Shown here: positions 6,884 to 61,321 of the stretch, one piece after another
Layout of the letters: each line of letters starts with the position of its first letter
Numbering within the stretch: the stretch's first letter is position 1
Origin: Actinomycetes bacterium
Lineage (GTDB): Bacteria; Actinomycetota; Acidimicrobiia; Acidimicrobiales; JAMCQF01
Direction of reading: 5' to 3'
Length of the DNA: 64,000 nt
Assembly (NCBI GenBank): GCA_021851885.1
Contig: JAJZBS010000002.1
Location: forward strand, 3,162-67,161
The notes under the pieces: model-generated
What the model saw: the letters and a program-made list of their open reading frames with translations, nothing else
The model's database searches: none
What the model was told of the DNA's origin: nothing
Program-made: the position numbers and the translations under genes

Positions 6884-6898
6884 TAACGTAACACGTTA
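6884..6898. promoter_or_regulatory. Dyad operator site O1 (ACGT-N3-ACGT family)
   Basis: TAACGTAACACGTTA with perfect 6+6 arms. It lies in the divergent region between the KstD-like gene (-) and the LLM gene (+), followed by AAATAATGAT. Confidence 0.6.
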
Positions 6899-7109
6899 AA
6901 TAATGATCCGCATCCCGCACGCTCAGGAGGGGCCCGGGACCGCTCTCGACGCCGTCCGGGTCGGATGCCGGTGCTATCTTCCGTTTCTCGGAAGATGGAG
7001 ATATCAGGGCGACGGCAGGTGTCGGCATCGGCTTCCTGGGCCATCCGGGGGGACGGGCGGTGGCCGGCGCCAGGAGAAAGGACCAGGACCGGTGGACGTT
7101 GGGATCGCC

Positions 7110-8174
7110 ATGGGGGCAGTGCCGCCGTTCGAGTCGATGCGGCGGCGGGTGGAGCGCAGTGCCGGAGGCGCGGTCGACTCGTTCTGGTGGCCCGACCACC
7201 TGGTCGCGTTCCACTCCCATTCTCTGTGGGCGACCGGCGCCCTGGCTGCCATCCAGCCGGACCCGCACGCCTACGCCGACCCGTTCGTGTGCATGGCGGC
7301 ATGCGCCCCGAGCGCAGGGGACGCGCTGGTAGGCGTCTGCGTGACCGACGCCGTCCGCCGCATGCCGGCGACGCTGGCGCAGACCGTCATGAGCCTCGAC
7401 CACCTTGCTCCCGGCCGCGTCGTGCTCGGCCTGGGCGCGGGGGAGCACGCCAACTACAGTCCCTACGGCTGGGAGGTCGCCTCGCCGGCCGGTCGGCTGG
7501 AGCAGGCGGCCGGGCAGATCCGCCGGCTGCTCGACGACGGCGCCGCCGACGAGAAGGGTGCGGTGCTCGGTCTGCGGCCGCCGGCCGGATCTCGGGGGCC
7601 GCAGCTGTGGATCGCCGCCCACGGGCCGCGGGGCTATTCGGTCGCCGGACGGTTCGGCGACGGATGGATCCCGAACTTCCTGTCACGGGACGCGTGGCAG
7701 GCCGGACGTCGGTCCGTCGCCGACGCGGCCCGGGAGGCGGGGCGCGACCCGAGCGCCCTCACCTATGCGTTGTCGGCCCAGGTGGTGGTGGCCGACACCC
7801 ACGAGGCCGCCCACCAGCTTCTGGAGCATCCGATCCTGCGGGCCTACGGGCTACTGCTCCCCCCGGAGCGCTTCGCCGAAGTTGGCGCCGACCATCCGCT
7901 CGGTGGGCATGGGCTGTCGCACCTGGTCGCCAGCCGGGACGACGGGAGCCAGCTCGCAGCGGCGAAGGCGGTCCCGTTCCCCGTGGTGCACGACTACTTC
8001 GTCCACGGCACACCGGAGGAGGTGGCGGCGCAAATCGGTGCCTACGACGAGCTCGACCACGCCGTCCTGTGGGACCCGGTGCCGCTGGTCGACCTCGGCG
8101 CCGCTCGCACCAGCGCCGCTGGGGTCGCCGAGATCGCCCGCATGCTGAAGGCGGGGGGCCGGCCCCAGGGCTGA
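7110..8174 (+). CDS. LLM-class (F420-dependent-type) oxidoreductase
   Basis: Luciferase-like monooxygenase-family sequence (...SLDHLAPGRVVLGLGAGE...GDGWIPNF...). The start is ATG 7110 or GTG 7092, with GGAGAAAGG upstream. Confidence 0.8.
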   Translation: MGAVPPFESMRRRVERSAGGAVDSFWWPDHLVAFHSHSLWATGALAAIQPDPHAYADPFVCMAACAPSAGDALVGVCVTDAVRRMPATLAQTVMSLDHLAPGRVVLGLGAGEHANYSPYGWEVASPAGRLEQAAGQIRRLLDDGAADEKGAVLGLRPPAGSRGPQLWIAAHGPRGYSVAGRFGDGWIPNFLSRDAWQAGRRSVADAAREAGRDPSALTYALSAQVVVADTHEAAHQLLEHPILRAYGLLLPPERFAEVGADHPLGGHGLSHLVASRDDGSQLAAAKAVPFPVVHDYFVHGTPEEVAAQIGAYDELDHAVLWDPVPLVDLGAARTSAAGVAEIARMLKAGGRPQG

Positions 8175-8199
8175 CCGAGGAGGTCGCCCGCCCGCTCGA

Positions 8200-8679
8200 T
8201 CAGCCGGCCGGCGGAGCGGGGGCGGCGTCGCGGCCGGCGTACGGGTAAGTGCGCCCCGGGACCTCATCGCGGCCGCGGTAGAGGAAGGCGAAGGTGCGGC
8301 TGGCGAAGCGCCACGCACCGTCGTGCCGTTCCAGGTCGTCTTCGTAGTAGCCGATGAACAGCGCACCTGCGCCTTCCGGGTCGCGTCCGTGCTCGGTCAG
8401 GTACCACCGGGCCGTGGCCCGGTCGCCGTGGAGGTCGACGACGCCCGAGTGGAGGAGCTGTACCAGGTGGGTGAACTGTCCCAGCAAGCCGGTGAGGCGG
8501 GCGGCGATGTCGTCGTGCCCCACGGTCTCGTCGACGCCGGGCACGATCCAACGTCCATCGGGAGCGAAGAGCGCCGCCATCTCGGTGGGGGAGCGGCGGT
8601 TCACCGCGTCGGTGAAGCGTTGCGCCAGGTCGCGGATGGCCAGCTCGTCTGCGATCTCGGTGTCGGTCAGTAGCGCCAT
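8200..8679 (-). CDS. NTF2/SnoaL-like domain protein
   Basis: 159 aa; IRDLAQRFTDAVNRRSPTEMAALFAPDGRW... is typical of SnoaL_4-type proteins. It overlaps the upstream gene's stop by 13 nt. Confidence 0.75.
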   Translation of the reverse strand: MALLTDTEIADELAIRDLAQRFTDAVNRRSPTEMAALFAPDGRWIVPGVDETVGHDDIAARLTGLLGQFTHLVQLLHSGVVDLHGDRATARWYLTEHGRDPEGAGALFIGYYEDDLERHDGAWRFASRTFAFLYRGRDEVPGRTYPYAGRDAAPAPPAG

Positions 8680-10064
8680 GTGTCCTCCAATCCACCTACG
8701 CGTTCCCCGAGCACCAGCTCGGCGCAGGTCAGTCCTGAACGTGCCGCACGGTCGATGCCGACCGACCGGCTCCGGAAGGTGTCACCGCCGACGAACAGAC
8801 CGTCGATGCCCGGGACGACGTTGTGCGGGCGCATTGCGCCGACAAGCCCGGGTCGAGCCTTGAGGCCGAAGTTCGTGATGACGTGTCGCACGCGGAACGT
8901 CGAGTGCGCCAGGACAGGGTACAGCTCCTCCATGTCTGCCTCGAAGCCGGCGAGGACGGTGGCCAGGCGTCGCCGGTCGCGGACAGCCGCCAGATCGCAC
9001 GCGACGCCACACACGAAGAGGTTGCCGTCGGGCGGGGCTGACACCGGGTCGAGCATCGAGTGTGTGTAGGCGAACCCCGGTAGGCCCGTGCGGGCGGTGC
9101 CGAACCACACGGCGAGCTCGCGCGGCGTGTAGACGGCGGGCGGCTCGGGGAGCGCGGCGTAGAAGCCGATCCAACTACCTCGGGCGTCCTCAGTGGTCAT
9201 CCGGGCCACGAGGTCGAGGTACCAGGCCGGGACGTCACCACCGGGCAGCAGTCCCAGGACATCCCACGCGGGGAGGGTCAGGATGACCGTGTCGGCGTCG
9301 ATGCGCTCGAGCGGGAGCACCTCGTTCGGCACCCGGCGCTCTCCGACCTCGACGTACACGCCGCGGACCGTACAGTCCTCGACGGCGACGCCGGCTACCG
9401 AAACCCCGCGCCGCACCTCGGCGCCGCCTGCCTGCGCCAGCGCGCCTACCTGTTCGAACAGGTGCTCGAAGCCGCCGACGGGCACGTAGGAGTAGCCAGG
9501 CTTGCGTTGCTCGCGCAGGTGCAGGGACCGCATGAACAGGTTGTCGCTCGCCGAATGGTCCTGCGGGCGACCGGTCTGCCCTTCGAGGACGGCCATGAAC
9601 TCGAAGAGCTCGGTCACCCGCCTGTTGTCGGTCCGTGCTGCCAGCCAGTCGCCCAGCGCCACCTGGTCGAGCTGGTCGAGCTGGTCGAGGTCGAGCGACG
9701 CGACCTCGCCGGCGACCCGGGCCAGGTCGGCGCGACCGGACTGGTAGAACTCGCCCGCCTGCTGCCAATGCCCGCCGTCCCAGACGGCCATGCCGTCGTT
9801 GGTCGGGCCGTGCTCCAGCGTCATGCCGAACCGGGCGAGGATCGCGGTGATGCCGCTGCCGGGGTCCTCGAGCAGGTGCGGGCCCCACTGGAGGCGGTAG
9901 CCGTCGACGTCGAAATACCGGGCGCGCCCGGCAAGCACCTCGTCGCGTTCGAGGAGGAGCACCCGCTTGCCGGCATCGGCCAGGGCGGCCGCCGCGACGG
10001 AGCCGGCGGCCCCGCCGCCCACCACGATGGTGTCGTAGTGCGCCTGACCCGTATTCGTGGTCAT
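8667..10064 (-). CDS. NAD(P)/FAD-dependent oxidoreductase (phytoene-desaturase/CrtI-like family)
   Basis: YDTIVVGGGAAGSVAAAALADAGKRVLLLE dinucleotide motif, 465 aa, ATGA overlap with the upstream ECH gene. Confidence 0.8.
   Translation of the reverse strand: MTTNTGQAHYDTIVVGGGAAGSVAAAALADAGKRVLLLERDEVLAGRARYFDVDGYRLQWGPHLLEDPGSGITAILARFGMTLEHGPTNDGMAVWDGGHWQQAGEFYQSGRADLARVAGEVASLDLDQLDQLDQVALGDWLAARTDNRRVTELFEFMAVLEGQTGRPQDHSASDNLFMRSLHLREQRKPGYSYVPVGGFEHLFEQVGALAQAGGAEVRRGVSVAGVAVEDCTVRGVYVEVGERRVPNEVLPLERIDADTVILTLPAWDVLGLLPGGDVPAWYLDLVARMTTEDARGSWIGFYAALPEPPAVYTPRELAVWFGTARTGLPGFAYTHSMLDPVSAPPDGNLFVCGVACDLAAVRDRRRLATVLAGFEADMEELYPVLAHSTFRVRHVITNFGLKARPGLVGAMRPHNVVPGIDGLFVGGDTFRSRSVGIDRAARSGLTCAELVLGERVGGLEDTWRY
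9663..9695. repeat. 9-bp tandem repeat ctggtcgag x3.7 inside a CDS
   Basis: ctggtcgag occurs at 9663, 9672 and 9681, plus a partial gtcgag. It encodes LDLDQLDQLDQ in the CrtI-like protein and is in frame. Confidence 0.8.
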
Positions 10065-10873
10065 GGGTCTGCCCTCCCGTGATCGGCGCCCGGCCTGCCG
10101 CCGAAGCGGGGGGATCGCCGTTCAAAGAACGCGGCGAACCCCTCGGCGAAGTCGGGCGAAGCGAACAGTGACGGCTGGACCATGCGCTCGAAGGCCTGGA
10201 CCGTCCACAGGTTTCCGTCGAGGCCGCTGTGGAGCACGAGCTTGGCGTAGCCCTGTGCGGTCGTCGGGCCGGAGGCCAGTTCGCGGGCGTAGGCGTGGGC
10301 ACCCTGCCGGAACCCGTCATCTGGCATCACCCTCGTGACGAGGCCGATGGCCGCCGCCTCGGCGGCACCGACGGACCGCCCGCTCAGTACCAGCTCCATG
10401 GCCCGTCGCAGGCCCACCAGGCGGGGCAGGAACCACAGGGCTGCGTGGTCCGGCAGGATGCCCCGCCGGACGAAGACAGGCGTGAACGTGGAGCGCTCGG
10501 ACGCGAGCACGACGTCGCATGCGATTGCCAGCGCGAAACCGGCTCCCACGGCTACACCGTCGACCGCGCACACGATCGGCTTCTCGGCCCGGAACAGCCA
10601 ACCCGTGACCTCGCTCGACACCTGCGTCCATTGGTCGACGACGGCGTCGGCATGGGGACCGGTCATCTCCGCTGGATCGCCACCGGCGCTGAAAGCGCCT
10701 TCGTCACCGGTGAGCAGCACGCATCGGACGCTGGGGTCGCGTGCGGCGTCGCGCACCGCTGTTGCGAGGGCGTCGAGCATCGGCGTGTCCATGCCGTTGT
10801 AACGTCCCGGCCGCGACAGGGTGAGGACGCGCAGCCCGTCCTCGCTCTCTACGCGCACGCGCCCTTCAGCCAC
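10061..10873 (-). CDS. Enoyl-CoA hydratase/isomerase family protein
   Basis: LRVLTLSRPGRYNGMD...LLTGDEGAFSAGGD crotonase motif, 270 aa. Confidence 0.88.
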   Translation of the reverse strand: MAEGRVRVESEDGLRVLTLSRPGRYNGMDTPMLDALATAVRDAARDPSVRCVLLTGDEGAFSAGGDPAEMTGPHADAVVDQWTQVSSEVTGWLFRAEKPIVCAVDGVAVGAGFALAIACDVVLASERSTFTPVFVRRGILPDHAALWFLPRLVGLRRAMELVLSGRSVGAAEAAAIGLVTRVMPDDGFRQGAHAYARELASGPTTAQGYAKLVLHSGLDGNLWTVQAFERMVQPSLFASPDFAEGFAAFFERRSPRFGGRPGADHGRADP

Positions 10874-11549
10874 GACGCCTGCCGATAGGCCTGGCCGACG
10901 GGTTCGGCTCCGGGTCCCGGAGCCCGTCGAGGAAGATGGCTGTCACCGCGGCAGCACGCCGCTCGGCTCGTGCCTGCGACTCGTCGGTGTGTCGGACCGC
11001 ATACCAATTGCACATGCCCAGCAACGCGTCGGCGGCGACCGTGGGATCGCCCGGCCGGAGGCTGCCATCGGTCATGCCCGTGGCGATCAGCCTGCGCAGG
11101 CCCCGCAGGTAGCGGGTGTCGAGATCGACGAGCTCCGGTGGTACCGGCAGGGAGCGCAGGTTCTCCACGTAGATCGACACCGCGGGCGAGTACCGGGCGA
11201 CGTTGCCGAAGTGACGGCGCACCGCCTCTGCCACACGGTCCGGAACAGGGCCAGAGTCGGCCAGGATGTCGTCGAGGTGGGCGACGAAGTCCCGGTACGG
11301 GGGAAGGACGATCTCGAAGAGGAGCTCGTGCTTGGTCCGGACGTAGTGGTACAGGCTGGCCTTGGACAGCCCGAGCTGATCTGCGATGTCGTCCATGCGC
11401 GCCGCGTGGTACCCGTGCCGCCGGAAGACCTCGGCTGCGGCGGCACGGATCTCCTCCCGTGACCGCGGCGGCTGGCCGACCGGGCGCCCCGGTCCCCGGG
11501 AACGCGCCTTCGCCGTCACCTGGCTGCGGTCTGGCGTCGCGGTCACCAC
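10866..11549 (-). CDS. TetR/AcrR family transcriptional regulator
   Basis: HTH region REEIRAAAAEVFRRHGYHAARMDDIADQLGLSKASLYHYVRTKHELL. GTG start without an SD (possibly leaderless; TTATGAG lies 8-9 nt upstream). Overlaps the downstream ECH start by 8 nt. Confidence 0.88.
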   Translation of the reverse strand: MVTATPDRSQVTAKARSRGPGRPVGQPPRSREEIRAAAAEVFRRHGYHAARMDDIADQLGLSKASLYHYVRTKHELLFEIVLPPYRDFVAHLDDILADSGPVPDRVAEAVRRHFGNVARYSPAVSIYVENLRSLPVPPELVDLDTRYLRGLRRLIATGMTDGSLRPGDPTVAADALLGMCNWYAVRHTDESQARAERRAAAVTAIFLDGLRDPEPNPSARPIGRRRG

Positions 11550-11720
11550 CGGGTAGCCCTCATAATCGACTCACGAGTAGAATTGTGGTCGTTAGCCGCC
11601 ACGCGGTCAAGACCGTCACCGGAGGGGGTGGGAGCGGGGGTGGTTGGAGGCCATGGACCTGGAGGCCTACACCCGGAACGCTGTTGTCGGGGAGCAGGGG
11701 ATGGAGAAGGGACGCCAACG

Positions 11721-12794
11721 ATGGAAGCGCAGGCAACGGAGGCCGACAGGTCCACTCGACCGCTCAAGATCGGCGTGCCGGCACCGCAACTGGCGGGCAG
11801 CGACCCGGCGCGGGCAGCACTGGCGGCGGAAGCTGCCGGGCTCGACTCGATGTGGTGGGCGGACCGCCTCGCCGGCTGGATGCCGGAGGGACCTCATGCG
11901 CTCGTCGACCCGTTGCCGTCGATGGCGGTCGCCGGACATGCCACGGCCACGCTTCAGCTCGGTACGGCTGTCGCCGACGTGTTGCGCCGCCATCCGGCGC
12001 AGTTGGCCCAGAGCGCGCTCACTGTCCAGGACCTGAGCGGCGGGCGGCTCATCCTCGGTGTGGGATGTGGCGAGGCGGCCGGCACGGTGCGGTACGGCAT
12101 GGACTTCGATCGCCCGGTCGAACGGCTCGACGAGGCGCTGCACGTCGTCCGCGCCCTGTGGCGCGACGGGGGCCCGGCACACTTCGCCGGGCGGCATTAC
12201 TCCCTGTCGGGCGCCCGCTGTGGGCTGGCCGCTGCCGTGACCCCGCCACCGGTCTGGCTGGCTTCCCACGGACCGCGCATGCTGGCGCTGACCGGCGAGC
12301 TCGCCGACGGCTGGCTTCCCACCGCAGGTGGTCCGCGCCTGTACGCAGAGCAACTGGGCGCCATCCGGCTGGCCGAGGCGGCCGCCGGGCGGCCGGCGGG
12401 GTCCGTGGAGGCCGGCGCCTTCGTGTGGATCGTCGCCTCCCGCACCCGGGCTGACGCCCGCCGACTGCTGGCCAGTGATCGACTGCGGGCACTAGGGCTC
12501 CTGCTCCCGAAAGGAGCGCTCGCCTCGTCGCCGCTGCAGCACGGCCCGTCCCATGACCTCGTCGGCCATGAGGACACGGTGGCACTGGCCCGGCAGATCG
12601 ACCTGGACGAGCTGGCCGAGGTGATGCCGCACGGCGGGCCTGAGGACGTGGCCGAGGAGCTGGCCCGTTACCGCGCGGCCGGCGCTGAGCACATGGTCGT
12701 GTGCGACATGGCTCCGCTCGCCGGACGCGACGCCGGGGGGGACCTGCGCGGTCTCCAGCTGTACCGGTGGCTTCGTGACGCGCTGGTCGCCTAG
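11721..12794 (+). CDS. LLM-class (F420-dependent-type) oxidoreductase
   Basis: Luciferase-like sequence (...DLSGGRLILGVGCGE...ADGWLP...). ATG 11721 is preceded by GGAGAAGGGA. Confidence 0.8.
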   Translation: MEAQATEADRSTRPLKIGVPAPQLAGSDPARAALAAEAAGLDSMWWADRLAGWMPEGPHALVDPLPSMAVAGHATATLQLGTAVADVLRRHPAQLAQSALTVQDLSGGRLILGVGCGEAAGTVRYGMDFDRPVERLDEALHVVRALWRDGGPAHFAGRHYSLSGARCGLAAAVTPPPVWLASHGPRMLALTGELADGWLPTAGGPRLYAEQLGAIRLAEAAAGRPAGSVEAGAFVWIVASRTRADARRLLASDRLRALGLLLPKGALASSPLQHGPSHDLVGHEDTVALARQIDLDELAEVMPHGGPEDVAEELARYRAAGAEHMVVCDMAPLAGRDAGGDLRGLQLYRWLRDALVA

Positions 12795-17313: not shown

Positions 17314-17328
17314 TGACGTCAAACGTCA
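17314..17328. promoter_or_regulatory. Dyad operator site O2
   Basis: TGACGTCAAACGTCA with perfect arms, plus an extra ACGT at 17311. It sits between the divergent hydrolase operon (-) and a FadD gene (+). CATACTAGAT lies downstream. Confidence 0.6.
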
Positions 17329-20490: not shown

Positions 20491-20505
20491 TAACGTTTGA
20501 CGTAC
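20491..20505. promoter_or_regulatory. Dyad operator site O3
   Basis: TAACGTTTGACGTAC with a perfect ACGT-N3-ACGT core. ATCTATCA lies just 5' (TGATAGAT on the minus strand, an extended -10-like element facing the VOC gene), and ACGTACGAT faces the plus strand. Confidence 0.55.
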
Positions 20506-21647: not shown

Positions 21648-21662
21648 TGACGTTGGGCGTCA
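21648..21662. promoter_or_regulatory. Dyad operator site O4 with sigma70-like promoter
   Basis: TGACGTTGGGCGTCA has one core mismatch. TTGACG (21647) is followed after 18 nt by TATATT (21671). ATCTATCA lies just 5'. Confidence 0.5.
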
Positions 21663-22835: not shown

Positions 22836-22919
22836 GGGCCTGGCACCCGCTGGAGTGCCCATGGCGCGCCTGGCGCCCAGGTCACCTGTGCGCCAGTGTC
22901 GCTTACGCAGAAGAAATTT

Positions 22920-22941
22920 AACGCTTGACGTTTGACGCGGT
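22920..22941. promoter_or_regulatory. Dyad operator site O5 (two overlapping sites offset by 7 nt)
   Basis: In TAACGCTTGACGTTTGACGCGG, each site has one ACGC variant. TTGACG (22926) is followed after 18 nt by TACGAT (22950). It lies upstream of the ABC importer operon. Confidence 0.5.
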
Positions 22942-27959: not shown

Positions 27960-27974
27960 TAACGTTGGACGTAA
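27960..27974. promoter_or_regulatory. Dyad operator site O6
   Basis: TAACGTTGGACGTAA with a perfect core. The right arm fuses to TAAGAT (27972-27977). Confidence 0.6.
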
Positions 27975-30606: not shown

Positions 30607-30621
30607 TCACGTTGGACGTAA
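30607..30621. promoter_or_regulatory. Dyad operator site O7
   Basis: TCACGTTGGACGTAA with a perfect core. TTGGAC (30612) is followed after 18 nt by TATAGT (30636). Confidence 0.6.
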
Positions 30622-33905: not shown

Positions 33906-33920
33906 TTACGTTAGACGTAA
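33906..33920. promoter_or_regulatory. Dyad operator site O8 (best palindrome)
   Basis: CTTACGTTAGACGTAAG has perfect 7+7 arms (33905-33921). TAAGAT faces the plus operon and TAAGCA is on the other strand. The region is divergent. Confidence 0.65.
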
Positions 33921-38852: not shown

Positions 38853-38867
38853 TAACGTAGGACGTAA
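38853..38867. promoter_or_regulatory. Dyad operator site O9
   Basis: TAACGTAGGACGTAA with a perfect core, fused to TAAAAT (38865-38870). The region is divergent. Confidence 0.6.
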
Positions 38868-40578: not shown

Positions 40579-40593
40579 TTACGCTTGACGTCG
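40579..40593. promoter_or_regulatory. Dyad operator site O10
   Basis: TTACGCTTGACGTCG with one core mismatch, in a divergent region. AAATAGATAG lies downstream, and GCGTAAGAA is on the other strand. Confidence 0.45.
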
Positions 40594-40625
40594 CACGGCA
40601 AATAGATAGCCTTTCTGGGACGGAC

Positions 40626-42465: not shown

Positions 42466-42480
42466 TGACGTGTGACGTCA
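42466..42480. promoter_or_regulatory. Dyad operator site O11 (orphan, faces an IS-like remnant)
   Basis: TGACGTGTGACGTCA with perfect arms. GTGACG is followed after 17 nt by TAGTGT (42495). Confidence 0.55.
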
Positions 42481-42628: not shown

Positions 42629-42975
42629 ATGAAACGTGGCACGAAACAGTTGGCGGAGGCGCCGGCGGGTGCCAGGCGGCAGTGGCGGCGGACCGGGCGC
42701 TGCGCGCACCGATGCGTTCGTCCGGGCGACCTGAGCCCTCGCGGTCGGTGCAGCGGGAGTTCTGGCGGCTGATCGTCACGGGGATCACGACGGTGGAAGC
42801 GTCGGCCGGCGTGGGCTTGTCGGTCCCCGTCGGGACGCGGTGGTCGTCGCGTCTGGGGGACCCTCAGCTCTGGCTAGCCCTCGTACACCACTCTGGTGGA
42901 CTCAACTGCCGGAAGCGGACCGCGACCCACGGGCTCCGGGCCGCGGCAGCCGGGCATTCCTGGTCTCTCGTAGGG
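42629..42975 (+). mobile_element. Possible IS30-like transposase 5' remnant (HTH region only, frameshifted, truncated)
   Basis: GGGAGG plus ATG 42629 opens MKRGTKQLAEAP... A second frame reads RSVQREFWRLIVTGITTVEASAGVGLSVPVGTRW, which resembles the N-terminal HTH of actinobacterial IS30-type transposases (recall only). No catalytic domain and no inverted repeats were identified. Confidence 0.3.
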
Positions 42976-42996
42976 TACGCTTTACGTCATACGTAA
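42975..42996. promoter_or_regulatory. Dyad operator site O12 (two overlapping sites offset by 7 nt)
   Basis: In GTACGCTTTACGTCATACGTAA, the distal site TTACGTCATACGTAA has perfect arms. It is followed by TAAGCG. Confidence 0.6.
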
Positions 42997-46246: not shown

Positions 46247-46261
46247 TTACGTTCAGCGTCA
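46247..46261. promoter_or_regulatory. Dyad operator site O13
   Basis: TTACGTTCAGCGTCA with one core mismatch, between divergent FadD genes. GATACTAGTACACT lies downstream. Confidence 0.5.
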
Positions 46262-51629: not shown

Positions 51630-51712
51630 CGGGTCACCACCGCATCGGATGTGAGCGAGTTGTAAGTGCCCACTGGGCCCTCCTAACAGGTCGGGTTGGG
51701 TTGACTGTAATC

Positions 51713-52936: not shown

Positions 52937-52949
52937 GAGCGAGGAACTG

Positions 52950-54620: not shown

Positions 54621-54652
54621 TCATCAACCCCGAACGCGTGAGATAGGAGTAG

Positions 54653-55063: not shown

Positions 55064-55118
55064 GTGGTCAGGCCGGCGGCAGGTACGGAGGCCCACTTGG
55101 GCCCAAGGAGGGACAGCC

Positions 55119-55980: not shown

Positions 55981-55995
55981 TGACGATAGTCGTGA
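55981..55995. promoter_or_regulatory. Degenerate dyad O16 (ACGA-N3-TCGT) upstream of MerR-1
   Basis: TGACGATAGTCGTGA, preceded by cTTGACG. It has two core mismatches relative to the family and is weak. Confidence 0.25.
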
Positions 55996-56023: not shown

Positions 56024-56569
56024 ATGTCCACCGGCGAGCGCAAGCCTGATTCCGCACCAGCGAAGCCACGTCGTGGCAGGCAGTCCCCGAATGATCGGGT
56101 ATTGAAGGCCGCCGAACCGGCCGGCAAACTCCCCGATCCCGTCGGGGAGACGGTCAGCATCGGTGAGCTGGCGAGGCGGACGAACGTGTCGACGCGGACC
56201 ATCCGCTACTACGAGGAGCTCGGCATCCTGCCCGAACCGGAGCGGACGTCGGGAGGCACCCGGCGGTACCCGACGGATTACATCTTCTACGTGGAAGGGG
56301 CAAAGATCCTGAAGCAGCTGGGCTTCGGGCTCGAGGAGATCGCCGAGCTGGGCAAGTTCGCGCTGACCGGGGCATCGGCGTCCAAGCGGACGCGCGCCAT
56401 CCTTCAGCAGAAGCTCGGTGAGCTCAACCACCGGATCGGGGTGCTCGACCGCTTGCACGACCTGGTGGAGCAGGCGTCCTCCGATCCGACGGCGAAGGAC
56501 CTGCCGGTGCCCGAGCTCCTCCGCTGGGTGACCGAAGAGAACGGCCTCCGGGCGGTCGCCGGCGACTGA
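56024..56569 (+). CDS. MerR family transcriptional regulator (paralog 1)
   Basis: HTH region IGELARRTNVSTRTIRYYEELGILPEPERTSGGTRRYP. GGGTGAGGG precedes the ATG. About 75% identical by eye to 63093-63602 over the core. Confidence 0.88.
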   Translation: MSTGERKPDSAPAKPRRGRQSPNDRVLKAAEPAGKLPDPVGETVSIGELARRTNVSTRTIRYYEELGILPEPERTSGGTRRYPTDYIFYVEGAKILKQLGFGLEEIAELGKFALTGASASKRTRAILQQKLGELNHRIGVLDRLHDLVEQASSDPTAKDLPVPELLRWVTEENGLRAVAGD

Positions 56570-56728: not shown

Positions 56729-56743
56729 TAACGTTGGACGTCA
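56729..56743. promoter_or_regulatory. Dyad operator site O17
   Basis: TAACGTTGGACGTCA with a perfect core, upstream of the MaoC-ACAD operon. Confidence 0.6.
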
Positions 56744-56771: not shown

Positions 56772-57227
56772 ATGTTCGACAGGTACTACGACGAACTCGA
56801 GGTCGGCGACCGGCGCGAGTTCAGCGGCGTCACGATCACCGAGACCCACGTCGTCAACTTCGCCGGGGTCACCGGGGACCACTTCGGTCTGCACATGGAC
56901 GCCGAGTACGCGAAATCCACGCCGTTCGGGCAGCGGATCGCCCACGGTCTGCTGGTGTTGTCGGTCGGTGCGGGCCTGATCCCGCTCCTCCCCGGTCGGG
57001 TCCAGGCCTTCATGGGCATGGACGAGGTGCGGTTCCTGGCGCCGGTCTTCTTCGGCGACACGGTCCATCCCGTGATGGAGGTGCTCGAGAAGGAGGACAA
57101 GAAGTCCGGCGGCACCGTCGTGATCCAGGAGAACATCGTCAATCAGAAGGGCGACGTCGTGGTATCGGCGAAGATCCGGATCTGGGTGGGGTCCAGTCCG
57201 GAGGGCGCCGGGACCCCGCCCGCCTGA
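56772..57227 (+). CDS. MaoC-like (R)-specific enoyl-CoA hydratase/dehydratase
   Basis: Hot-dog fold pattern ...ITETHVVNFAGVTGDHFGLHMDAEYA...FGQRIAHGLL. GGAG lies 5 nt before ATG 56772. Confidence 0.85.
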   Translation: MFDRYYDELEVGDRREFSGVTITETHVVNFAGVTGDHFGLHMDAEYAKSTPFGQRIAHGLLVLSVGAGLIPLLPGRVQAFMGMDEVRFLAPVFFGDTVHPVMEVLEKEDKKSGGTVVIQENIVNQKGDVVVSAKIRIWVGSSPEGAGTPPA

Positions 57228-57300
57228 ACTATCCACCCGAGACGTGACGCGGTACGGCACCCGCTCGGGTGGCAACCGGGCATGCAGTGACGGAGACGCC

Positions 57301-58449
57301 ATGGAACGGAACCTCTTCGAGCCGGACCACCTCGCCTTCCGCGACTCGGTGCGCACGTTCATCGCGCGCAACGTGGCGGATGACTACGAGCGCTGGGAGC
57401 ACGAGGGCATGGTCGACCGCCTCCTCTGGAACCGGGCCGGGGAGGCCGGGTTCCTCGGGATGTCCATTCCCGAGGAGTACGGCGGCGGCGGCGTGGTGGA
57501 CTTCCGGTTCAACGCGACGCTGACCGAGGAGTTCGCGCTCTCCAACATGCTGTCGCTCTCGTCGGGGTTCGGCCTGCACAACGACGTGGTGGCGCCCTAC
57601 CTGGTGGAGCTGGGCACGCCCGAGCAGCACGCCCGCTGGCTGCCGGGGTTCTGCTCGGGTGACATCGTCACCGCCATCGCCATGACGGAGCCCGATGCCG
57701 GGAGTGACCTGAAGGGGGTGCGCACCACGGCGCGCCGCGATGGTGATTCGTACGTCGTGAACGGCACCAAGACGTTCATCACCAACGGGATCCACGCCGA
57801 CCTCGTGATCGTCGTGGCCAAGACCGATCCGGGAGCCGGGGCACGCGGGATGAGCCTGCTGGTCGTGGAGCGCGGCATGGAGGGGTTCGAGCGCGGCCGG
57901 CGCCTGTCCAAGGCGGGCATGCACGCGCAGGACACCGCCGAGCTGGTGTTCAACGACGTGCGCGTTCCGGCCGAGAACCTCCTCGGCCAGGAGAACGGCG
58001 CCTTCGGGCACCTGATGGACAATCTGCCCCAGGAGCGGTTGTCGATCGCCGTCGTCGCCGGTGCCGCCGCACGAGCTGCGTTCGCATGGACGGTCGACTA
58101 CTGCCACGACCGCAAGGCCTTCGGTCAGCCGATCGGCAGCTTCCAGAACAGCCGGTTCAAGCTCGCCGAGATGGCGACGGAGATCGAGGTCACCCAGCAC
58201 TACATCGACCAGTGTGTGGTGGACCACCATGCAGGCCGCCTCAGCGCGGTGGGGGCCGCAAAGGTGAAGTGGTGGGCGACCGAGGTGATGAAGCGGGTGA
58301 CGGACACCTGCGTGCAGCTCCACGGCGGGTATGGCTACATGGACGAGTACCCGATCTCGCGCGCCTGGCGTGACGCCCGGGTCCACACCATCTTCGGTGG
58401 CACGACCGAGATCATGAAAGAGATCATCGGCCGCGACCTGGGGTTCTGA
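57301..58449 (+). CDS. Acyl-CoA dehydrogenase
   Basis: AMTEPDAGSDL and a C-terminal ...IFGGTTEIMKEIIGRDL. GGAG lies 5 nt before the ATG. Confidence 0.92.
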   Translation: MERNLFEPDHLAFRDSVRTFIARNVADDYERWEHEGMVDRLLWNRAGEAGFLGMSIPEEYGGGGVVDFRFNATLTEEFALSNMLSLSSGFGLHNDVVAPYLVELGTPEQHARWLPGFCSGDIVTAIAMTEPDAGSDLKGVRTTARRDGDSYVVNGTKTFITNGIHADLVIVVAKTDPGAGARGMSLLVVERGMEGFERGRRLSKAGMHAQDTAELVFNDVRVPAENLLGQENGAFGHLMDNLPQERLSIAVVAGAAARAAFAWTVDYCHDRKAFGQPIGSFQNSRFKLAEMATEIEVTQHYIDQCVVDHHAGRLSAVGAAKVKWWATEVMKRVTDTCVQLHGGYGYMDEYPISRAWRDARVHTIFGGTTEIMKEIIGRDLGF

Positions 58450-58458: not shown

Positions 58459-59922
58459 TCAGGCCGGTTGGCGATGGGCGACGTGGCGGCCGGCGACCCG
58501 TCCGAAGAACGACCCCGGCCCGAGACTGAGGCCGCTCGCGTACCCCTTGCCGTCCTGGGCGATGGTCGATGCACACGCCCCGGCCGCGTACAGCCCGGGC
58601 ACGGGGCGGCCCCGGGTCGTCAGTACCCGGGCATCGGCGTCGGTGCGCAGCCCGCCGAGGGTCATGAACAGGTAGGACGACGTGTCGAAGGAGACGTCGA
58701 ACGCCGCCCACGGACCGTTCGTCAGCGGCACCACCCAGTCGGGGTGCTTCATGAACTGCGGGTCCTCGCCGCTCGCCGCGTGCTCGTTGTACGCGGCGAG
58801 CGTGGCGACGAGCGCGCCGGCGGGCATGCCCAGGGCCCGTTCCATCTCCTCGACGGTTTCCCATCCGTCGACCAGCGTGTGCCGGTGCGCGGTGATCTTC
58901 GGATAGGCGAACGTGGCCGCGTCGACGACCAGGAATGCCCTCTGCTCCGGCTGCTCCATGATGAAGCCGGCCGTACGCCCGTGGTAGGCGTCCTCCGCCA
59001 CGAAGCGCTCGCCCCGCAGGTTGACGAGCACCCCCTTGATGAGCCCGCTGGGCGGGTAGAACGAGCCGGTGGCAATGATGCCGCCCATCGACTGGGTGCT
59101 GGCACCGGCGGAAACTCCGAGCACGATGCCGGAACCGTCGTTGCCGGGGACGCCCAGCGGTTCCGAGGTCGCGGCCAGTGACGGGACGTGCTCGGCGAGC
59201 ATCCCCGGGTCGAAATTGAAGCCGCCGGTGCCGAGGACGACGCCGCGCCCCGCCCGCAGGTGGACGTCTGCGCCGTCGCGCCGTGCGCGCACGCCGATGA
59301 TCCCGCCGTCGCCACCGGCGACGAGGGCGGTGACTCGGGTGTCGGACATCGCCGGGAGATCCTCGGCCTGGCACGTGGCCAGGATGGCCTGCATGCCGAC
59401 GGCACCGGCGTGCTCGCCCTCGCCGGCGACCTTGTGTCCGCGCGGCGCCGGCCGGGCGATCTCCCGGAACGGCCACGCCTTCTCATTGCCGGTGCTGAAC
59501 AGCCCGGTGGTGCTGGTCAGGACCACCGACTTCCCGCCGAAATAGCTGCGTTCGAAGGGCACCCCCTGGGCCTCGAGCCAGTCGAAATGCTCCGGGCTCC
59601 CGAGGCAGTAGCGCCGCACGATGGAGGCATCGGGCGCGTTCGTGCTGGACAGGAGGAACTTGTACATCTCCTCGGGATCGTCCTCGTGCCCGAGATCCCG
59701 CTGCAGGGCGGTGCCACCGCCCAGATAGAAGATGCCCGACGAGACGATACTGGACCCACCGGGACCGCCCGCCCGGTCCACGACGAGGACGTCGGCGCCG
59801 GCTCGCTGCGCCTCGAGTGCGGCACAGGCGCCGGCGATCCCGTAGCCGACCACCACGACGTCGACGGTCTCGTCCCACGTGGCCACGTCCTCGGCGGGGA
59901 CCAAAGCTACCTGTTCGGGCAT
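58459..59922 (-). CDS. FAD-dependent oxidoreductase (KstD/fumarate-reductase-flavoprotein-like)
   Basis: VDVVVVGYGIAGACAALEAQRAG dinucleotide motif and a C-terminal GLYAAGACAS. 487 aa. Confidence 0.8.
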   Translation of the reverse strand: MPEQVALVPAEDVATWDETVDVVVVGYGIAGACAALEAQRAGADVLVVDRAGGPGGSSIVSSGIFYLGGGTALQRDLGHEDDPEEMYKFLLSSTNAPDASIVRRYCLGSPEHFDWLEAQGVPFERSYFGGKSVVLTSTTGLFSTGNEKAWPFREIARPAPRGHKVAGEGEHAGAVGMQAILATCQAEDLPAMSDTRVTALVAGGDGGIIGVRARRDGADVHLRAGRGVVLGTGGFNFDPGMLAEHVPSLAATSEPLGVPGNDGSGIVLGVSAGASTQSMGGIIATGSFYPPSGLIKGVLVNLRGERFVAEDAYHGRTAGFIMEQPEQRAFLVVDAATFAYPKITAHRHTLVDGWETVEEMERALGMPAGALVATLAAYNEHAASGEDPQFMKHPDWVVPLTNGPWAAFDVSFDTSSYLFMTLGGLRTDADARVLTTRGRPVPGLYAAGACASTIAQDGKGYASGLSLGPGSFFGRVAGRHVAHRQPA

Positions 59923-59971: not shown

Positions 59972-59986
59972 GTACGATTAACGTCC
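59972..59986. promoter_or_regulatory. Degenerate dyad O18 in a divergent promoter region
   Basis: GTACGATTAACGTCC within AACGATACGTACGATTAACGT. TACCAT (60002) is followed after 6 nt by ATG 60014, which looks leaderless. Confidence 0.3.
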
Positions 59987-60013
59987 AATGGCAGATCGCT
60001 GTACCATTCCGAC

Positions 60014-61219
60014 ATGGACTTCGAACTTTCGGAGGCGGCGAGCGACGCCAGCGAGCGGATGTGGCAGTTCATGCGCGAGGAGGTCTTCCCGGCGGAGCCG
60101 CGGTGGTACGAGCACCTGCGCACCCATGGGGAGCACAGCCACCCGCCGTTGATGGAGCAGCTGAAGGACTCCGCCCGCAGGCGCGGACTGTGGAACCTGT
60201 TCCTGCCGGAGTTGGGGGGGATGAGCAACGTCGACTACGCGGCGGTGGCCGAGATCTCCGGCTGGTCGCCGGTGATCGCCCCCGAGGCCATCAACTGCCA
60301 GGCGCCCGACTCCGGGAACATGGAGACCCTGAGCCTGTTCGCGACGCCTGCGCAGAAAGAGGCCTGGCTCAAACCGTTGCTCGACGGCGAGATCCGGTCG
60401 GCGTTCGCGATGAGCGAGCCCGATGTCGCCTCCTCCGACGCGACCAACATCGCTACCGTCATCCGCCGCGACGGCGACGAGTACGTCATCAACGGGCGGA
60501 AATGGTGGATCACCGGCACGGCCGACGAGCGCTGCTCGATCCTCATCGTCATGGGCAAGACTGATCCGGACGCCGAACCGCACCGCCAGCAGTCGATGGT
60601 CCTCGTCCCACGGGACACGCCTGGCGTGCACGTCGAGCGGCACCTGCCCATCTTCGGCTACCAGGACCAGCACGGTCACTCGGAGATCGTCCTCCGCGAC
60701 GTGCGCGTCCCGGCCGCAAACCTCCTGGGGGAAGAGGGTGACGGGTTCCGCATCGCCCAGGCACGCCTGGGACCGGGCCGCATCCACCACGCCATGCGGG
60801 CGATCGGCATGGCCGAGCGGGCGCTGGCGCTGATGGTGGACCGGTCCAGGTACCGGTCGGTGTTCGGCTCCAAGCTGTCCGATCACGCCGTCGTGCAGGA
60901 GCTCGTCGCGCAGTCGAGGATCGAGATCGACCAGGTCCGCCTGTACGTCTACCGCACGGCCTGGCTCATCGACCGCTACGGGGCGAAGGGGGCGCGTTCG
61001 GAGATCGCGGGGATCAAGGTGGCGGCACCGGCCATGGCCACCCGCGTCATCGACCGCGCCATCGAGGTGTTCGGTGCCATGGGCCTCAGCGACGACACGC
61101 CGCTCGCCTACTTCTACGCCTGGGCCCGGGCGCTGCGTGTGGTCGACGGACCGGACGCCGTGCACCGCCGGACGGTGGCGCGCCAGGAACTTCGCCGCGA
61201 GCGGCCGTACACCGGGTAG
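60014..61219 (+). CDS. Acyl-CoA dehydrogenase, FadE2/ACAD10-11-type
   Basis: SEPDVASSDATNI..YVINGRKWWITG is characteristic of the ACAD10/11-FadE2 clade (recall). No SD, with a -10-like hexamer 6 nt upstream of the ATG. Confidence 0.88.
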   Translation: MDFELSEAASDASERMWQFMREEVFPAEPRWYEHLRTHGEHSHPPLMEQLKDSARRRGLWNLFLPELGGMSNVDYAAVAEISGWSPVIAPEAINCQAPDSGNMETLSLFATPAQKEAWLKPLLDGEIRSAFAMSEPDVASSDATNIATVIRRDGDEYVINGRKWWITGTADERCSILIVMGKTDPDAEPHRQQSMVLVPRDTPGVHVERHLPIFGYQDQHGHSEIVLRDVRVPAANLLGEEGDGFRIAQARLGPGRIHHAMRAIGMAERALALMVDRSRYRSVFGSKLSDHAVVQELVAQSRIEIDQVRLYVYRTAWLIDRYGAKGARSEIAGIKVAAPAMATRVIDRAIEVFGAMGLSDDTPLAYFYAWARALRVVDGPDAVHRRTVARQELRRERPYTG

Positions 61220-61306
61220 CGGTGGGGACCACCGCCACGACGGCCGCCCAGGAACGCTTGATCCCGGGTTCGGATCCTGGCGCTGATGACGCACGTGAGA
61301 TAGAGT

Positions 61307-61321
61307 TTACGTTGAACGTTA
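61307..61321. promoter_or_regulatory. Dyad operator site O19
   Basis: TTACGTTGAACGTTA with a perfect core, followed by TAGATAAGAT. AAGGAGG and GTG 61348 come next. Confidence 0.6.

What the first reader, a model, noticed from the sequence alone, without database searches (positions are those of the whole stretch)
6884..61321. One ACGT-N3-ACGT dyad sits on about 19 promoters, suggesting a single large, unrecognised regulon across the island
The AT-richer gaps between genes keep showing the same dyad, T[T/A/G]ACGT-N3-ACGT[A/C]A. The 15-mer sites are:
- 6884 TAACGTAACACGTTA
- 17314 TGACGTCAAACGTCA
- 20491 TAACGTTTGACGTAC
- 21648 TGACGTTGGGCGTCA
- 22920/22927 TAACGCTTGACGTTTGACGCGG (two sites offset by 7)
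- 27960 TAACGTTGGACGTAA
- 30607 TCACGTTGGACGTAA
- 33906 TTACGTTAGACGTAA (7+7 perfect)
- 38853 TAACGTAGGACGTAA
- 40579 TTACGCTTGACGTCG
- 42466 TGACGTGTGACGTCA
- 42975/42982 GTACGCTTTACGTCATACGTAA (two sites offset by 7)
- 46247 TTACGTTCAGCGTCA
- 51713 TATCGTTAAACGTCA
- 51895 TGACGCTTGACGTAA
- 56729 TAACGTTGGACGTCA
- 61307 TTACGTTGAACGTTA
- weaker variants at 55981 and 59972
Eleven sites carry a perfect ACGT-N3-ACGT core. At about 70% GC, an 8-base core of this composition should occur less than about once per 64 kb by chance (a rough estimate, not computed). Every listed site is intergenic, either just 5' of a transcription unit or between divergent units.
In many sites the right arm runs directly into a TANNNT -10-like hexamer:
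- ACGTAAGAT at 27969 and 33915
- ACGTAAAAT at 38862 and 51904
- ACGTTAGATAAGAT at 61316
- on the other strand, TGATAGAT-type extended -10 elements at 20480-20496, 21638-21653 and 51710-51725
In others the central TTGAC(G) doubles as a -35 placed 17-18 nt from a -10 (21647/21671, 22926/22950, 30612/36).
A single DNA-binding protein could therefore gate about 50 catabolic genes. Only the TetR-linked unit (8200-12794) and the first 5 kb lack the dyad. It does not match the KstR (TnnAACnnGTTnnA) or KstR2 operators known for actinobacterial steroid clusters. I vaguely recall that MerR-family LiuR regulons were predicted to use ACGT-rich palindromes, but I cannot verify that here.
Basis: partly seen in the sequence, partly recalled or inferred. 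Interest (0 to 1): 0.85.

Follow-up and report, generated by a model that had tools for sequence, protein, structure and literature searches.

The report
MerR-type operator controlling a catabolic island
A 15-21 bp palindrome (TnACGT-N3-ACGTnA) marks about 18 gene-to-gene gaps in a 55 kb block of acyl-CoA and oxidoreductase genes, and is most likely the binding site of two neighbouring MerR-family regulators related to LiuR, a known regulator of branched-chain amino-acid breakdown, but with the two half-sites one base further apart.

Summary
ACGT-N3-ACGT occurs 13 times against 0.93 expected. A 21-bp matrix finds 17 strong sites, all intergenic, against 0.03 expected in shuffled intergenic DNA. 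The sites face about 28 transcription units and about 50 genes.

The window encodes two MerR paralogs, at 56024-56569 and 63081-63602. They are 60% identical, and the recognition helix and wing are the same in both. Their orthologs in other Actinomycetota (Acidimicrobiia, Streptomyces, Sphaerisporangium, Acrocarpospora) carry the same N3 dyad. The copy upstream of maoC (gATATAACGTTnnACGTCAAgt) is nearly invariant in a conserved maoC/merR/acad cluster.

More distant homologs use the same half-site with N2 spacing. One is a Vibrio liuR-liuA-liuB-liuC..liuE locus, recognised by gene order. Others are in Desulfobacterota and Bacillales. In Bacillales the dyad fills a 19-bp -35/-10 spacer, the classic MerR layout.

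The dyad is therefore best read as the operator of a LiuR-like MerR clade with +1 bp spacing and a much larger regulon. How it regulates (repression or MerR-type activation) and what ligand it senses are inferred only. I found no paper describing this motif. I rate it a new variant of a known kind, of moderate interest.

The parts
6884..6898 (.). Dyad TAACGTAACACGTTA, between the KstD-like flavoprotein gene (5098-6840, -) and a luciferase-like monooxygenase gene (6903-8174, +)
   Evidence: Perfect core; matrix score 27.6 bits, intergenic; gene families
17314..17328 (.). Dyad TGACGTCAAACGTCA, between the operon 17309 to 12884 (-: unknown gene, acyl-CoA ligase, enoyl-CoA hydratase, luciferase-like monooxygenase) and an acyl-CoA ligase gene (17332-18951, +)
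   Evidence: (25.2 bits)
20491..20505 (.). Dyad TAACGTTTGACGTAC, between a glyoxalase-fold gene (19845-20402, -) and the ORF 20703-21638 (+, no family match)
   Evidence: (28.3 bits)
21648..21662 (.). Dyad TGACGTTGGGCGTCA, upstream of an NADP-dependent oxidoreductase gene (21711-22835, +)
   Evidence: 21.4 bits; not used to build the matrix
22919..22940 (.). Three half-sites, 7 bp apart centre to centre, giving two overlapping registers (TAACGCTTGACGTTTGACGCGG), upstream of ABC transporter genes 22985-26960 (+)
   Evidence: 15.0 bits; not used to build the matrix
27960..27974 (.). Dyad TAACGTTGGACGTAA, between the ORF 27170-27724 (-) and the unit 27641/28127-30598 (+: unknown gene, alcohol dehydrogenase, unknown gene)
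   Evidence: (29.4 bits)
30607..30621 (.). Dyad TCACGTTGGACGTAA, upstream of alpha/beta-hydrolase and SDR genes (30736-32449, +). The central TGGACG lies 17 nt from a TATAGT hexamer.
   Evidence: (26.4 bits)
33906..33920 (.). Dyad TTACGTTAGACGTAA, a perfect palindrome, between the ORF 32832/33053-33893 (-) and a five-gene unit 34030-38251 (+: DUF7064/7065, SnoaL-like, alcohol dehydrogenase, SDR, TIM-barrel)
   Evidence: (30.3 bits)
38853..38867 (.). Dyad TAACGTAGGACGTAA, between a SnoaL-like gene (38283-38843, -) and a PNPOx-like gene (38909-39409, +)
   Evidence: (26.3 bits)
40579..40600 (.). Degenerate site with two registers 7 bp apart (TTACGCTTGACGTCGCACGGCA), between an alcohol dehydrogenase gene (39481-40512, -) and glyoxalase, SnoaL and EthD genes (40677-42401, +)
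   Evidence: 14.7 bits for register 40586; not used to build the matrix
42466..42480 (.). Dyad TGACGTGTGACGTCA, upstream of the ORF 42508-42996 (+, no family match)
   Evidence: (24.5 bits)
42975..42996 (.). Two registers 7 bp apart (GTACGCTTTACGTCATACGTAA), upstream of 43000-44591 (+: unknown gene, APH-type kinase)
   Evidence: (22.6 and 9.4 bits)
46247..46261 (.). Dyad TTACGTTCAGCGTCA, between an acyl-CoA ligase gene (44704-46206, -) and acyl-CoA ligase plus ACAD genes (46338-49060, +)
   Evidence: 19.5 bits; not used to build the matrix; all 21 positions identical in L001
51713..51727 (.). Dyad TATCGTTAAACGTCA, facing the CoA-transferase and SDR operon (51629 to 49097, -)
   Evidence: 22.4 bits; not used to build the matrix; 19 of 21 positions conserved in L001
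51895..51909 (.). Dyad TGACGCTTGACGTAA, facing the MeaB / B12-dependent acyl-CoA mutase / SDR operon (51914-55928, +)
   Evidence: 18.6 bits; not used to build the matrix
55981..55995 (.). Variant dyad TGACGATAGTCGTGA (ACGA..TCGT core), directly upstream of the MerR1 gene
   Evidence: The same kind of degenerate site sits upstream of merR in L001, L002, L004 and L083.
56024..56569 (+). MerR1, a MerR-family regulator and candidate binder of the dyad
   Evidence: Pfam MerR, MerR_1 and MerR-DNA-bind; no NCBIfam equivalog; 442 homologs, mostly Actinomycetota
56729..56743 (.). Dyad TAACGTTGGACGTCA, upstream of maoC and an ACAD gene (56772-58449, +). This is the most conserved site of the family.
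   Evidence: 29.9 bits. The same site precedes maoC in L001, L002, L028, L082, L083 and L084.
59972..59993 (.). Weak site with two registers (GTACGATTAACGTCCAATGGCA), between an FAD-binding flavoprotein gene (58459-59922, -) and an ACAD gene (60014-61219, +)
   Evidence: 10.6 and 9.8 bits; conserved in L001 at 14697 (15.2 bits)
61307..61321 (.). Dyad TTACGTTGAACGTTA, upstream of enoyl-CoA hydratase, SDR and MerR2 genes (61348-63602, +)
   Evidence: (33.0 bits, the best in the window)
63081..63602 (+). MerR2, a paralog of MerR1. It has no dyad of its own and is probably the last gene of the unit behind site 61307.
   Evidence: Pfam; 60% identity; the STRTIRYYEELGILP helix and GGTRRYP wing are identical; no site in 62992-63080

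Best explanation
The dyad is the operator of the two MerR-family paralogs encoded in the window. Its fuller form is roughly A-n-A-T-T-T-n-ACGT-N3-ACGT-n-A-A-A-T-n-T.

Each MerR dimer places its two recognition helices (STRTIRYYEE, identical in both paralogs) on the two TTnACGT half-sites. Because the sites lie on or next to -35-like and -10-like hexamers, 9 to about 120 nt from most start codons, occupancy controls RNA polymerase access at about 28 transcription units. These encode acyl-CoA ligases, ACADs, hydratases, a thiolase, CoA-transferases, a B12-dependent mutase, KstD-like flavoproteins, SDR and alcohol dehydrogenases, SnoaL-like proteins and an ABC transporter.

The most likely mode (inferred) follows LiuR. 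The ligand-free protein represses. A pathway intermediate, probably an acyl-CoA thioester, releases it or converts it to a MerR-type activator. MerR1 regulates itself through a weaker variant site. MerR2 is made from a regulated operon, which would give feedback.

In evolutionary terms this is a LiuR-like clade. It kept the half-site, moved the half-sites one base pair apart (N3 instead of N2), and greatly enlarged its regulon in this Acidimicrobiia-like genome.
For: Shown here:
- Strong, strictly N3 and intergenic-only enrichment.
- Two MerR genes lie inside the site cluster. One has a variant site at its own promoter and the other sits behind a canonical site.
- The motif travels with the regulator. 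N3 sites are enriched around MerR orthologs in L001 (Acidimicrobiaceae), L002 (Acrocarpospora), L005, L009, L028, L082 (Streptomyces armeniacus) and L083/L084 (Sphaerisporangium). 42 of the 45 sites scanned in the window plus L001, L002, L005, L009 and L028 are intergenic.
- About 250 kb of comparably GC-rich loci (17 in all) have no hit. Most carry a different MerR subfamily; L003 and L012 look closer to this clade.
- The site upstream of maoC is almost invariant across classes, while its surroundings diverge.
- Window against L001: 130/147 positions identical inside the 21-mers, against 616/865 in the flanks.
- The same half-site with N2 spacing lies just upstream of more distant homologs. 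These include a Vibrio liuR-ACAD-carboxyltransferase-hydratase..HMG-CoA lyase locus.
- In Bacillales the dyad fills a 19-bp spacer between TTGAAG and TATACT. This layout is typical of MerR-family promoters (established knowledge).
- Recognition helices are conserved across the N2 and N3 groups.

From the literature: LiuR is described as a MerR-family repressor with a large regulon (PMC3223726, PMC5343134).
Against: - There is no binding or expression data. The assignment of regulator to site rests on co-occurrence.
- Site position relative to promoter-like hexamers varies. TANNNT peaks at +5 and +16 from the centre, and T[TG]GAC at -8 and -1. No transcription start sites are known.
- The canonical MerR layout, with a -10 starting about +12 from the centre, is not the main class here.
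- One clade member, L003 (Sphaerimonospora), has no site within 10 kb on either side and sits behind a cobalamin riboswitch instead.
- Similarity to the Vibrio LiuR is limited to the DNA-binding domain.
- The proteins have no recognisable ligand-binding domain, so the effector is a guess.
Confidence: 0.72

Rival explanations
1. The dyad is a real operator, but it is bound by another transcription factor. Candidates are the TetR protein at 10866-11549, one of the ORFs with no family match, or a factor encoded outside the window. On this reading the MerR genes are simply members of the regulon.
For: Only co-occurrence links MerR to the site. Several ORFs have no Pfam match and cannot be excluded as DNA-binding proteins.
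Against: The TetR unit is the one block without a dyad, and its divergent promoter region has no inverted repeat of this type. The motif follows MerR homologs across phyla where the neighbouring genes differ: an MFS transporter gene in Neobacillus, an ACAD gene in Desulfobacterota, and liu genes in Vibrio. The half-site spacing changes with the MerR clade.
Confidence: 0.1
2. The MerR proteins bind the dyad but act mainly as classic MerR-type activators. They would untwist an over-long -35/-10 spacer when ligand-bound, and would not work as simple repressors released by the ligand.
For: Bacillales homologs show the textbook 19-bp-spacer layout. Some window sites have a TAGAT-type hexamer starting +13 or +14 from the centre (20491 minus strand, 21648 minus strand, 56729). 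That would fit a 20-21 bp spacer around an N3 dyad.
Against: Across 63 oriented cases there is no peak of -10-like hexamers at +11 to +13. Instead -35-like TTGAC lies inside the dyad, and -10-like hexamers lie at +5 or +16, which are occlusion layouts. LiuR is described as a repressor (PMC3223726).
Confidence: 0.25
3. The dyad is not an operator but a promoter signature. On this reading TTGACG is a -35 element and TAAGAT a -10 element for a housekeeping or alternative sigma factor, and they look palindromic by chance.
For: The arms contain TTGACG and TnAnnT strings, and the sites lie close to start codons.
Against: The two-fold symmetry is strict and extends to the flanks. The spacing between arms is fixed at N3, far too short for a -35/-10 pair. 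Position relative to other -10-like hexamers varies. Sites occur singly between divergent genes. The same half-site with N2 spacing sits inside, not as, the -35/-10 elements of Bacillales promoters.
Confidence: 0.03
4. The dyads are copies of a short intergenic repeat, of the REP or MITE kind, with no regulatory role.
For: Many near-identical palindromes lie in intergenic DNA.
Against: Only about 21 bp is shared and the flanks are unrelated. The sites are conserved at orthologous promoters across classes of Actinomycetota. They always lie 5' of genes and never between convergent genes.
Confidence: 0.02

Closest known systems
LiuR, the MerR-family regulator of branched-chain amino-acid and isovaleryl-CoA catabolism in Proteobacteria (predicted by Kazakov et al. 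2009; described in PMC3223726 and PMC5343134; P. aeruginosa LiuR from Diaz-Perez et al. 2018, as cited in PMC8070244)
   Same: It is a MerR-family HTH protein with a very similar recognition helix. The half-site TTnACGT is the same, shown here on a Vibrio liuR locus identified by gene order. A site lies at the regulator's own promoter. Targets are acyl-CoA catabolic genes (ACADs, hydratases, thiolase). The regulon is unusually large for a MerR protein; LiuR averages 13.7 target genes per genome (PMC5343134).
   Different: The half-site spacing is N3 here and N2 in the Vibrio, Desulfobacterota and Bacillales loci. Only the DNA-binding domain aligns, at 42% identity over 72 residues. The window has no methylcrotonyl-CoA carboxylase or HMG-CoA lyase genes. 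It has two paralogous regulators and about 18 operators packed into 55 kb. The phylum is Actinomycetota.
Canonical MerR-family activators (MerR, CueR, ZntR, BmrR, SoxR)
   Same: The fold matches; the best solved relatives are MerR 4ua1 and CueR. Binding is by a dimer to a palindrome of about 18-22 bp. In the Bacillales relatives the site fills a 19-bp spacer.
   Different: There are no metal-binding cysteines and no drug-binding domain. These regulators usually control one or two promoters. Here the site positions are varied and often overlap the -35 or -10 elements instead of being centred in a long spacer.
KstR and KstR2, TetR-family repressors of actinobacterial steroid catabolism
   Same: One repressor gates many catabolic operons in a large island containing KstD-like, ACAD, hydratase and ligase genes.
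   Different: The protein family differs (TetR). The dyad here has an ACGT core, and the one TetR-linked unit lacks it.

Membership tests
MerR family of transcription factors (the proposed binder) | N-terminal winged HTH of MerR type followed by a long dimerisation helix | tested here: met
   Pfam MerR, MerR_1 and MerR-DNA-bind in both proteins. The profile built from the family matches solved MerR and CueR chains.
MerR family of transcription factors (the proposed binder) | Operator centred in an over-long (19-20 bp) -35/-10 spacer | tested here: inconclusive
   Met for Bacillales homologs. In the window and other actinobacterial loci the layout varies and no transcription start sites are known.
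LiuR regulon | Palindromic operator built from TTnACGT half-sites | tested here: met
   The half-site matrix from the window finds the sites between ivdA and liuR in Vibrio L085 and upstream of homologs in Desulfobacterota.
LiuR regulon | Half-site spacing as in the LiuR box (ACGT-N2-ACGT, a 16-bp palindrome) | tested here: not met
   Window: 16 sites at N3 and none at N2. Loci of the N2 type show the reverse.
LiuR regulon | Regulator is orthologous to proteobacterial LiuR | tested here: inconclusive
   42% identity limited to 72 residues of the DNA-binding domain, against a Vibrio LiuR defined by gene order. No curated LiuR model exists in NCBIfam. No phylogeny was made.
LiuR regulon | Controls the liu and ivd genes (isovaleryl-CoA dehydrogenase, methylcrotonyl-CoA carboxylase, methylglutaconyl-CoA hydratase, HMG-CoA lyase) | tested here: not met
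   No carboxylase or HMG-CoA lyase gene in the window. The conserved core is maoC, merR and acad plus flavoproteins.
LiuR regulon | Autoregulation, with a site at the regulator's own promoter | tested here: met
   A variant site at 55981 is conserved in L001, L002, L004 and L083. MerR2 lies behind site 61307. This shows site presence only; expression was not tested.
LiuR regulon | Acts as a repressor relieved by a pathway metabolite | not testable with these tools
   Needs gene knock-out, EMSA and ligand assays.
KstR / KstR2 regulons | TetR-family repressor with a TnnAACnnGTTnnA or AnCAAGnnCTTGnT operator | tested here: not met
   The dyad consensus is incompatible with either operator. The TetR-linked unit is the one without a dyad.

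The most novel reading that the evidence does not exclude
A widespread actinobacterial clade of LiuR-like MerR regulators kept the TTnACGT half-site but shifted to an odd, +1 bp spacing. In this Acidimicrobiia-like genome it became the master switch for a catabolic island of about 50 genes and about 28 promoters, probably for alicyclic, steroid-like or branched acyl-CoA substrates. Two paralogs share one operator and may integrate two different ligands. A one-base spacing change with an unchanged half-site would make this a natural test case for how MerR dimers tolerate or exploit operator length and twist.
Probability: 0.5. Interest if true: 0.55.

Novelty: new variant of a known kind. Interest (0 to 1): 0.45.

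Why it matters
The finding gives a concrete, testable regulator-and-operator pair for a large catabolic island in a poorly studied, mostly uncultured lineage (Acidimicrobiia). It also covers a conserved maoC/merR/acad cluster in Streptomyces and Streptosporangiales, where all members are annotated only as 'MerR family'.

The matrix can be used to map the regulon genome-wide and so define the pathway. The change from N2 to N3 spacing with a conserved half-site bears on the MerR mechanism, which depends on operator length and DNA twist.

It is not a new kind of system. Large LiuR-type regulons were already predicted in Proteobacteria.

Tried and rejected
- LiuR consensus in print. Kazakov 2009 (PMC2612455, DOI, PMID) is not held. 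The papers that mention LiuR, and their supplements, give no site sequences. I therefore derived the LiuR box directly from a Vibrio liu locus.
- A search for 'LiuR' alone returned mostly author names.
- Literal motif strings such as ACGTNNNACGT gave no papers. Combinations of MerR, MaoC and ACAD terms gave nothing relevant.
- The 'Acin3' motif near a MerR gene in Nocardioides simplex (PMC7807495) was a lead. The logo is held only as an image, its E-value is 0.095, and that MerR sits in a drug-transporter context. I dropped it.
- A protein search of plasmid records with MerR1 gave mostly metal-type MerR and CueR proteins. A Ruegeria hit had no liu context.
- A second operator class, ACGA-N3-TCGT, was tested. 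It occurs twice against 1.4 expected, so it is not a class. The one conserved copy is at merR1.
- I looked for a TetR operator in 11480-11760 and found no inverted repeat.
- I looked for an insertion or deletion in the protein that would explain N2 versus N3 spacing. The alignment shows nothing obvious.
- Rfam finds nothing in the window.
- No structure prediction was run, because it would not decide any of the questions here.

Full report

Yes. ACGTNNNACGT occurs 13 times in the window, against a mean of 0.93 (maximum 4) in dinucleotide-preserving shuffles.

I called genes with a codon and GC3 model, which gave 62 genes covering 86.6% of the window. I then built a symmetrised 21-bp matrix from the 11 intergenic perfect-core sites.
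- It gives 17 hits at 12 bits or more, every one intergenic.
- At 8 bits or more there are 21 intergenic hits and 1 coding hit.
- Shuffling only the intergenic DNA predicts 0.03 hits at 12 bits or more.
- Six of the 17 hits were not used to build the matrix.
Both have poor flanks.
- Spacing is strict. Half-site spacings N0 to N7 give 0, 1, 0, 16, 0, 0, 0, 0 hits.

The consensus extends beyond the 15-mer, to roughly A-n-A-T-T-T-n-ACGT-N3-ACGT-n-A-A-A-T-n-T. The flanks are symmetric and A/T-rich.

**2. What surrounds the sites?**

Pfam and NCBIfam scans show a catabolic island containing:
- five acyl-CoA ligases;
- three ACADs;
- five enoyl-CoA hydratases, a MaoC hydratase and a thiolase;
- two CoA-transferase subunits;
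- a B12-dependent acyl-CoA mutase with MeaB;
- two flavoproteins of the KstD/ChcC type;
- three luciferase-like monooxygenases;
- many SDR and zinc alcohol dehydrogenases;
- five SnoaL-like proteins and an ABC transporter.

There are three regulators: one TetR protein (10866-11549) and two MerR proteins (56024-56569 and 63081-63602).

The sites occupy about 18 intergenic regions. About ten of these lie between divergent genes, so the sites face about 28 transcription units and about 50 genes. The TetR-linked block has no site.

**3. Who binds the dyad?**

The two MerR proteins are 60% identical. Their recognition helix and wing (VSTRTIRYYEELGILP...GGTRRYP) are identical. MerR1 has a degenerate palindrome at its own promoter (55981, TGACGAtagTCGTGA). 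MerR2 has no site of its own and follows the hydratase and SDR genes behind the best site in the window, 61307.

MerR1 has 442 homologs at E below 1e-10, all named only 'MerR family' where a source gives a name. The genera named include Streptomyces, Sphaerisporangium, Microbispora and Thermobifida.

A scan of species-representative genomes returned 80 loci. The closest is an Acidimicrobiaceae MAG (L001, 84% identity, same gene order), so the window probably comes from Acidimicrobiia.

The N3 dyad is enriched around the orthologs:
- L001: 6 hits at 12 bits or more (5 at the half-site threshold)
- L002, Acrocarpospora: 4 hits (3)
- L005: 5 hits (3)
- L009: 6 hits (4)
- L028: 7 hits (6)

These counts are, with the counts in brackets; the sites themselves are listed. 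Across the window plus these five loci, 42 of 45 sites are intergenic.

About 250 kb of equally GC-rich loci (17 in all) have none. Most carry a different MerR subfamily; L003 and L012 look closer to this clade.

Two further lookups gave Streptomyces armeniacus (L082) and Sphaerisporangium (L083, L084). Both show a conserved cluster: an aldehyde dehydrogenase gene, then maoC-merR-acad, then OYE-like, FAD-binding and TPP-enzyme genes.

The site upstream of maoC is nearly invariant in the window and in L001, L002, L028, L082, L083 and L084 (gATATAACGTTnnACGTCAAgt). The DNA around it diverges. The merR-proximal site is consistently a degenerate variant (L001, L002, T. fusca L004, L083).

Between the window and L001, the 21-mers are 130/147 identical and the flanks 616/865. 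This is a modest footprint because the two genomes are close.

**4. Link to LiuR**

I could not find the LiuR consensus in print in the held library. I therefore tested the link directly.

The half-site matrix built from the window detects the same half-sites at N2 spacing, just upstream of more distant MerR homologs in Desulfobacterota and Bacillales. Over all loci, N2 gives 59 hits, against 5 to 17 at the off spacings N0, N1 and N4-N7; N3 accounts for 30. One Desulfobacterota locus has the regulator divergent from an ACAD gene.

A 1.85 Mb Vibrio replicon filed under plasmids, probably a second chromosome (L085), has this gene order: merR, ACAD, carboxyltransferase, a methylglutaconyl-type hydratase, then HMG-CoA lyase. 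A thiolase and a methylmalonate-semialdehyde dehydrogenase lie on the other side, transcribed divergently. This is the liuRABC..E / ivd arrangement described for Shewanella (PMC3223726). Two N2 sites, TTGACGTTTACGTAAG and TTTACGTTAACGTAAA, lie between ivdA and liuR.

The LiuR box is therefore the same half-site one base closer together. The recognition helix is conserved across the N2 and N3 groups. MerR1 and the Vibrio LiuR align only over the DNA-binding domain, at 42% identity over 72 residues.

In four Bacillales promoters the N2 dyad fills a 19-bp spacer between TTGAAG/TTGAAC/TTGTAG and TATACT/TAAACT/TAAATT. This is the layout typical of MerR-family promoters.

**5. How does it probably work?**

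What is shown: a conserved, symmetric, promoter-proximal site that travels with a MerR clade. What is inferred: the MerR1 and MerR2 dimers bind it.

The mode of regulation is less certain. In 63 gene-facing orientations:
- -35-like T[TG]GAC lies inside the dyad, at -8 or -1 from the centre, 12 times each;
- -10-like TANNNT peaks at +5 and +16, 8 times each;
- the median distance from the dyad centre to the start codon is about 55 nt.

These are occlusion layouts. LiuR is described as a repressor (PMC3223726). Repression relieved by a metabolite is therefore my leading reading. MerR-type activation at a subset of promoters is not excluded, because TAGAT-type hexamers start at +13 or +14 at 20491(-), 21648(-) and 56729.

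The effector is unknown. The proteins have no metal-binding cysteines and no extra domain. An acyl-CoA thioester is a guess based on the conserved maoC and acad partners.

Several sites have three half-sites, 7 bp apart centre to centre, which gives two overlapping registers (22919, 40579, 42975, 59972, and also in L028 and L082). L005 has pairs of sites 52 bp apart. I have not explained the role of either arrangement.

**6. Rival explanations**

- Another transcription factor binds the site. This is unlikely. The TetR unit is the one block without sites. The motif follows MerR homologs into unrelated gene contexts, and its spacing changes with the MerR clade.
- The dyad is a sigma-factor promoter signature. 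The strict symmetry, the fixed N3 spacing and the variable position relative to -10 hexamers argue against this.
- The dyads are copies of an intergenic repeat element. The lack of shared flanks and the conservation at orthologous promoters argue against this.

**7. Novelty and score**

The kind of system is known: a MerR-family, LiuR-type regulon on acyl-CoA catabolism. Three things differ here:
- the odd, +1 bp spacing;
- the actinobacterial clade with a maoC/merR/acad core and no liu genes;
- the scale and density of the regulon, with two paralogous regulators.

I found no description of this in the held literature. I rate it a new variant of a known kind, with interest 0.45.

One counter-example remains. 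The Sphaerimonospora homolog (L003) has no dyad nearby and lies behind a cobalamin riboswitch.

Noticed in passing
L003:9500-9708 (Sphaerimonospora sp. CA-214678): A cobalamin riboswitch (Rfam RF00174, 94 bits) lies directly upstream of the ORF that encodes the MerR homolog. No ACGT-N3-ACGT dyad is found within 10 kb on either side. A LiuR-like MerR gene under B12 control is unusual. In the window, a dyad controls a B12-dependent mutase operon.
   Followed up: partly
window 51914-55063: An operon of MeaB GTPase, acyl-CoA mutase large subunit and a separate B12-binding small subunit, followed by an SDR gene, lies behind dyad 51895. The mutase scores below the methylmalonyl-CoA mutase equivalog cut-off (387 against 876 bits), so its substrate may differ.
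   Followed up: no
window 22919-22940, 40579-40600, 42975-42996, 59972-59993; L028:5434-5461; L082:13412-13439: Three ACGT-type half-sites, 7 bp apart centre to centre, give two overlapping dyad registers. Two dimers could not occupy both registers at once without clashing. The meaning is unknown; the registers may be alternatives.
   Followed up: no
L005:323-395 and L005:6136-6208: In this Acidimicrobiia MAG the dyads come in pairs exactly 52 bp apart, about five helical turns. This suggests cooperative binding or DNA looping.
   Followed up: no
L007, L008, L011, L015, L016, L018, L022, L023 (upstream of their MerR homologs): A different MerR subfamily in Actinomycetes and Streptosporangiaceae MAGs has a recurrent TTTGAGGTTAC-like string upstream of the gene and no ACGT dyad. 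This may be a separate operator family.
   Followed up: no
window 8200-12794: A TetR-linked unit (SnoaL-like, amine-oxidase-like flavoprotein, enoyl-CoA hydratase and TetR genes, with a divergent luciferase-like monooxygenase gene) is embedded in the island. It lacks the dyad, and I found no inverted repeat in its divergent promoter region.
   Followed up: partly
window 5098-6840 and 58459-59922; L082-L084: The FAD-binding flavoproteins score close to the 3-ketosteroid-delta1-dehydrogenase models. They also match the 4-oxocyclohexanecarboxylate desaturase models (ChcC1, ChcC2). In Sphaerisporangium the conserved maoC/merR/acad cluster lies next to protocatechuate 3,4-dioxygenase genes. This hints that the substrates are alicyclic acids and not steroids.
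   Followed up: no
window 2067-2936, 16392-17309, 20703-21638, 27170-27724, 29687-30598, 32832-33893, 42508-42996, 43000-43578: Eight sizeable ORFs, most of them next to or inside dyad-controlled units, have no Pfam family. Some may be mis-called at this GC content. The stretches 18952-19844 and 32450-32830 remain without a confident gene call.
   Followed up: no
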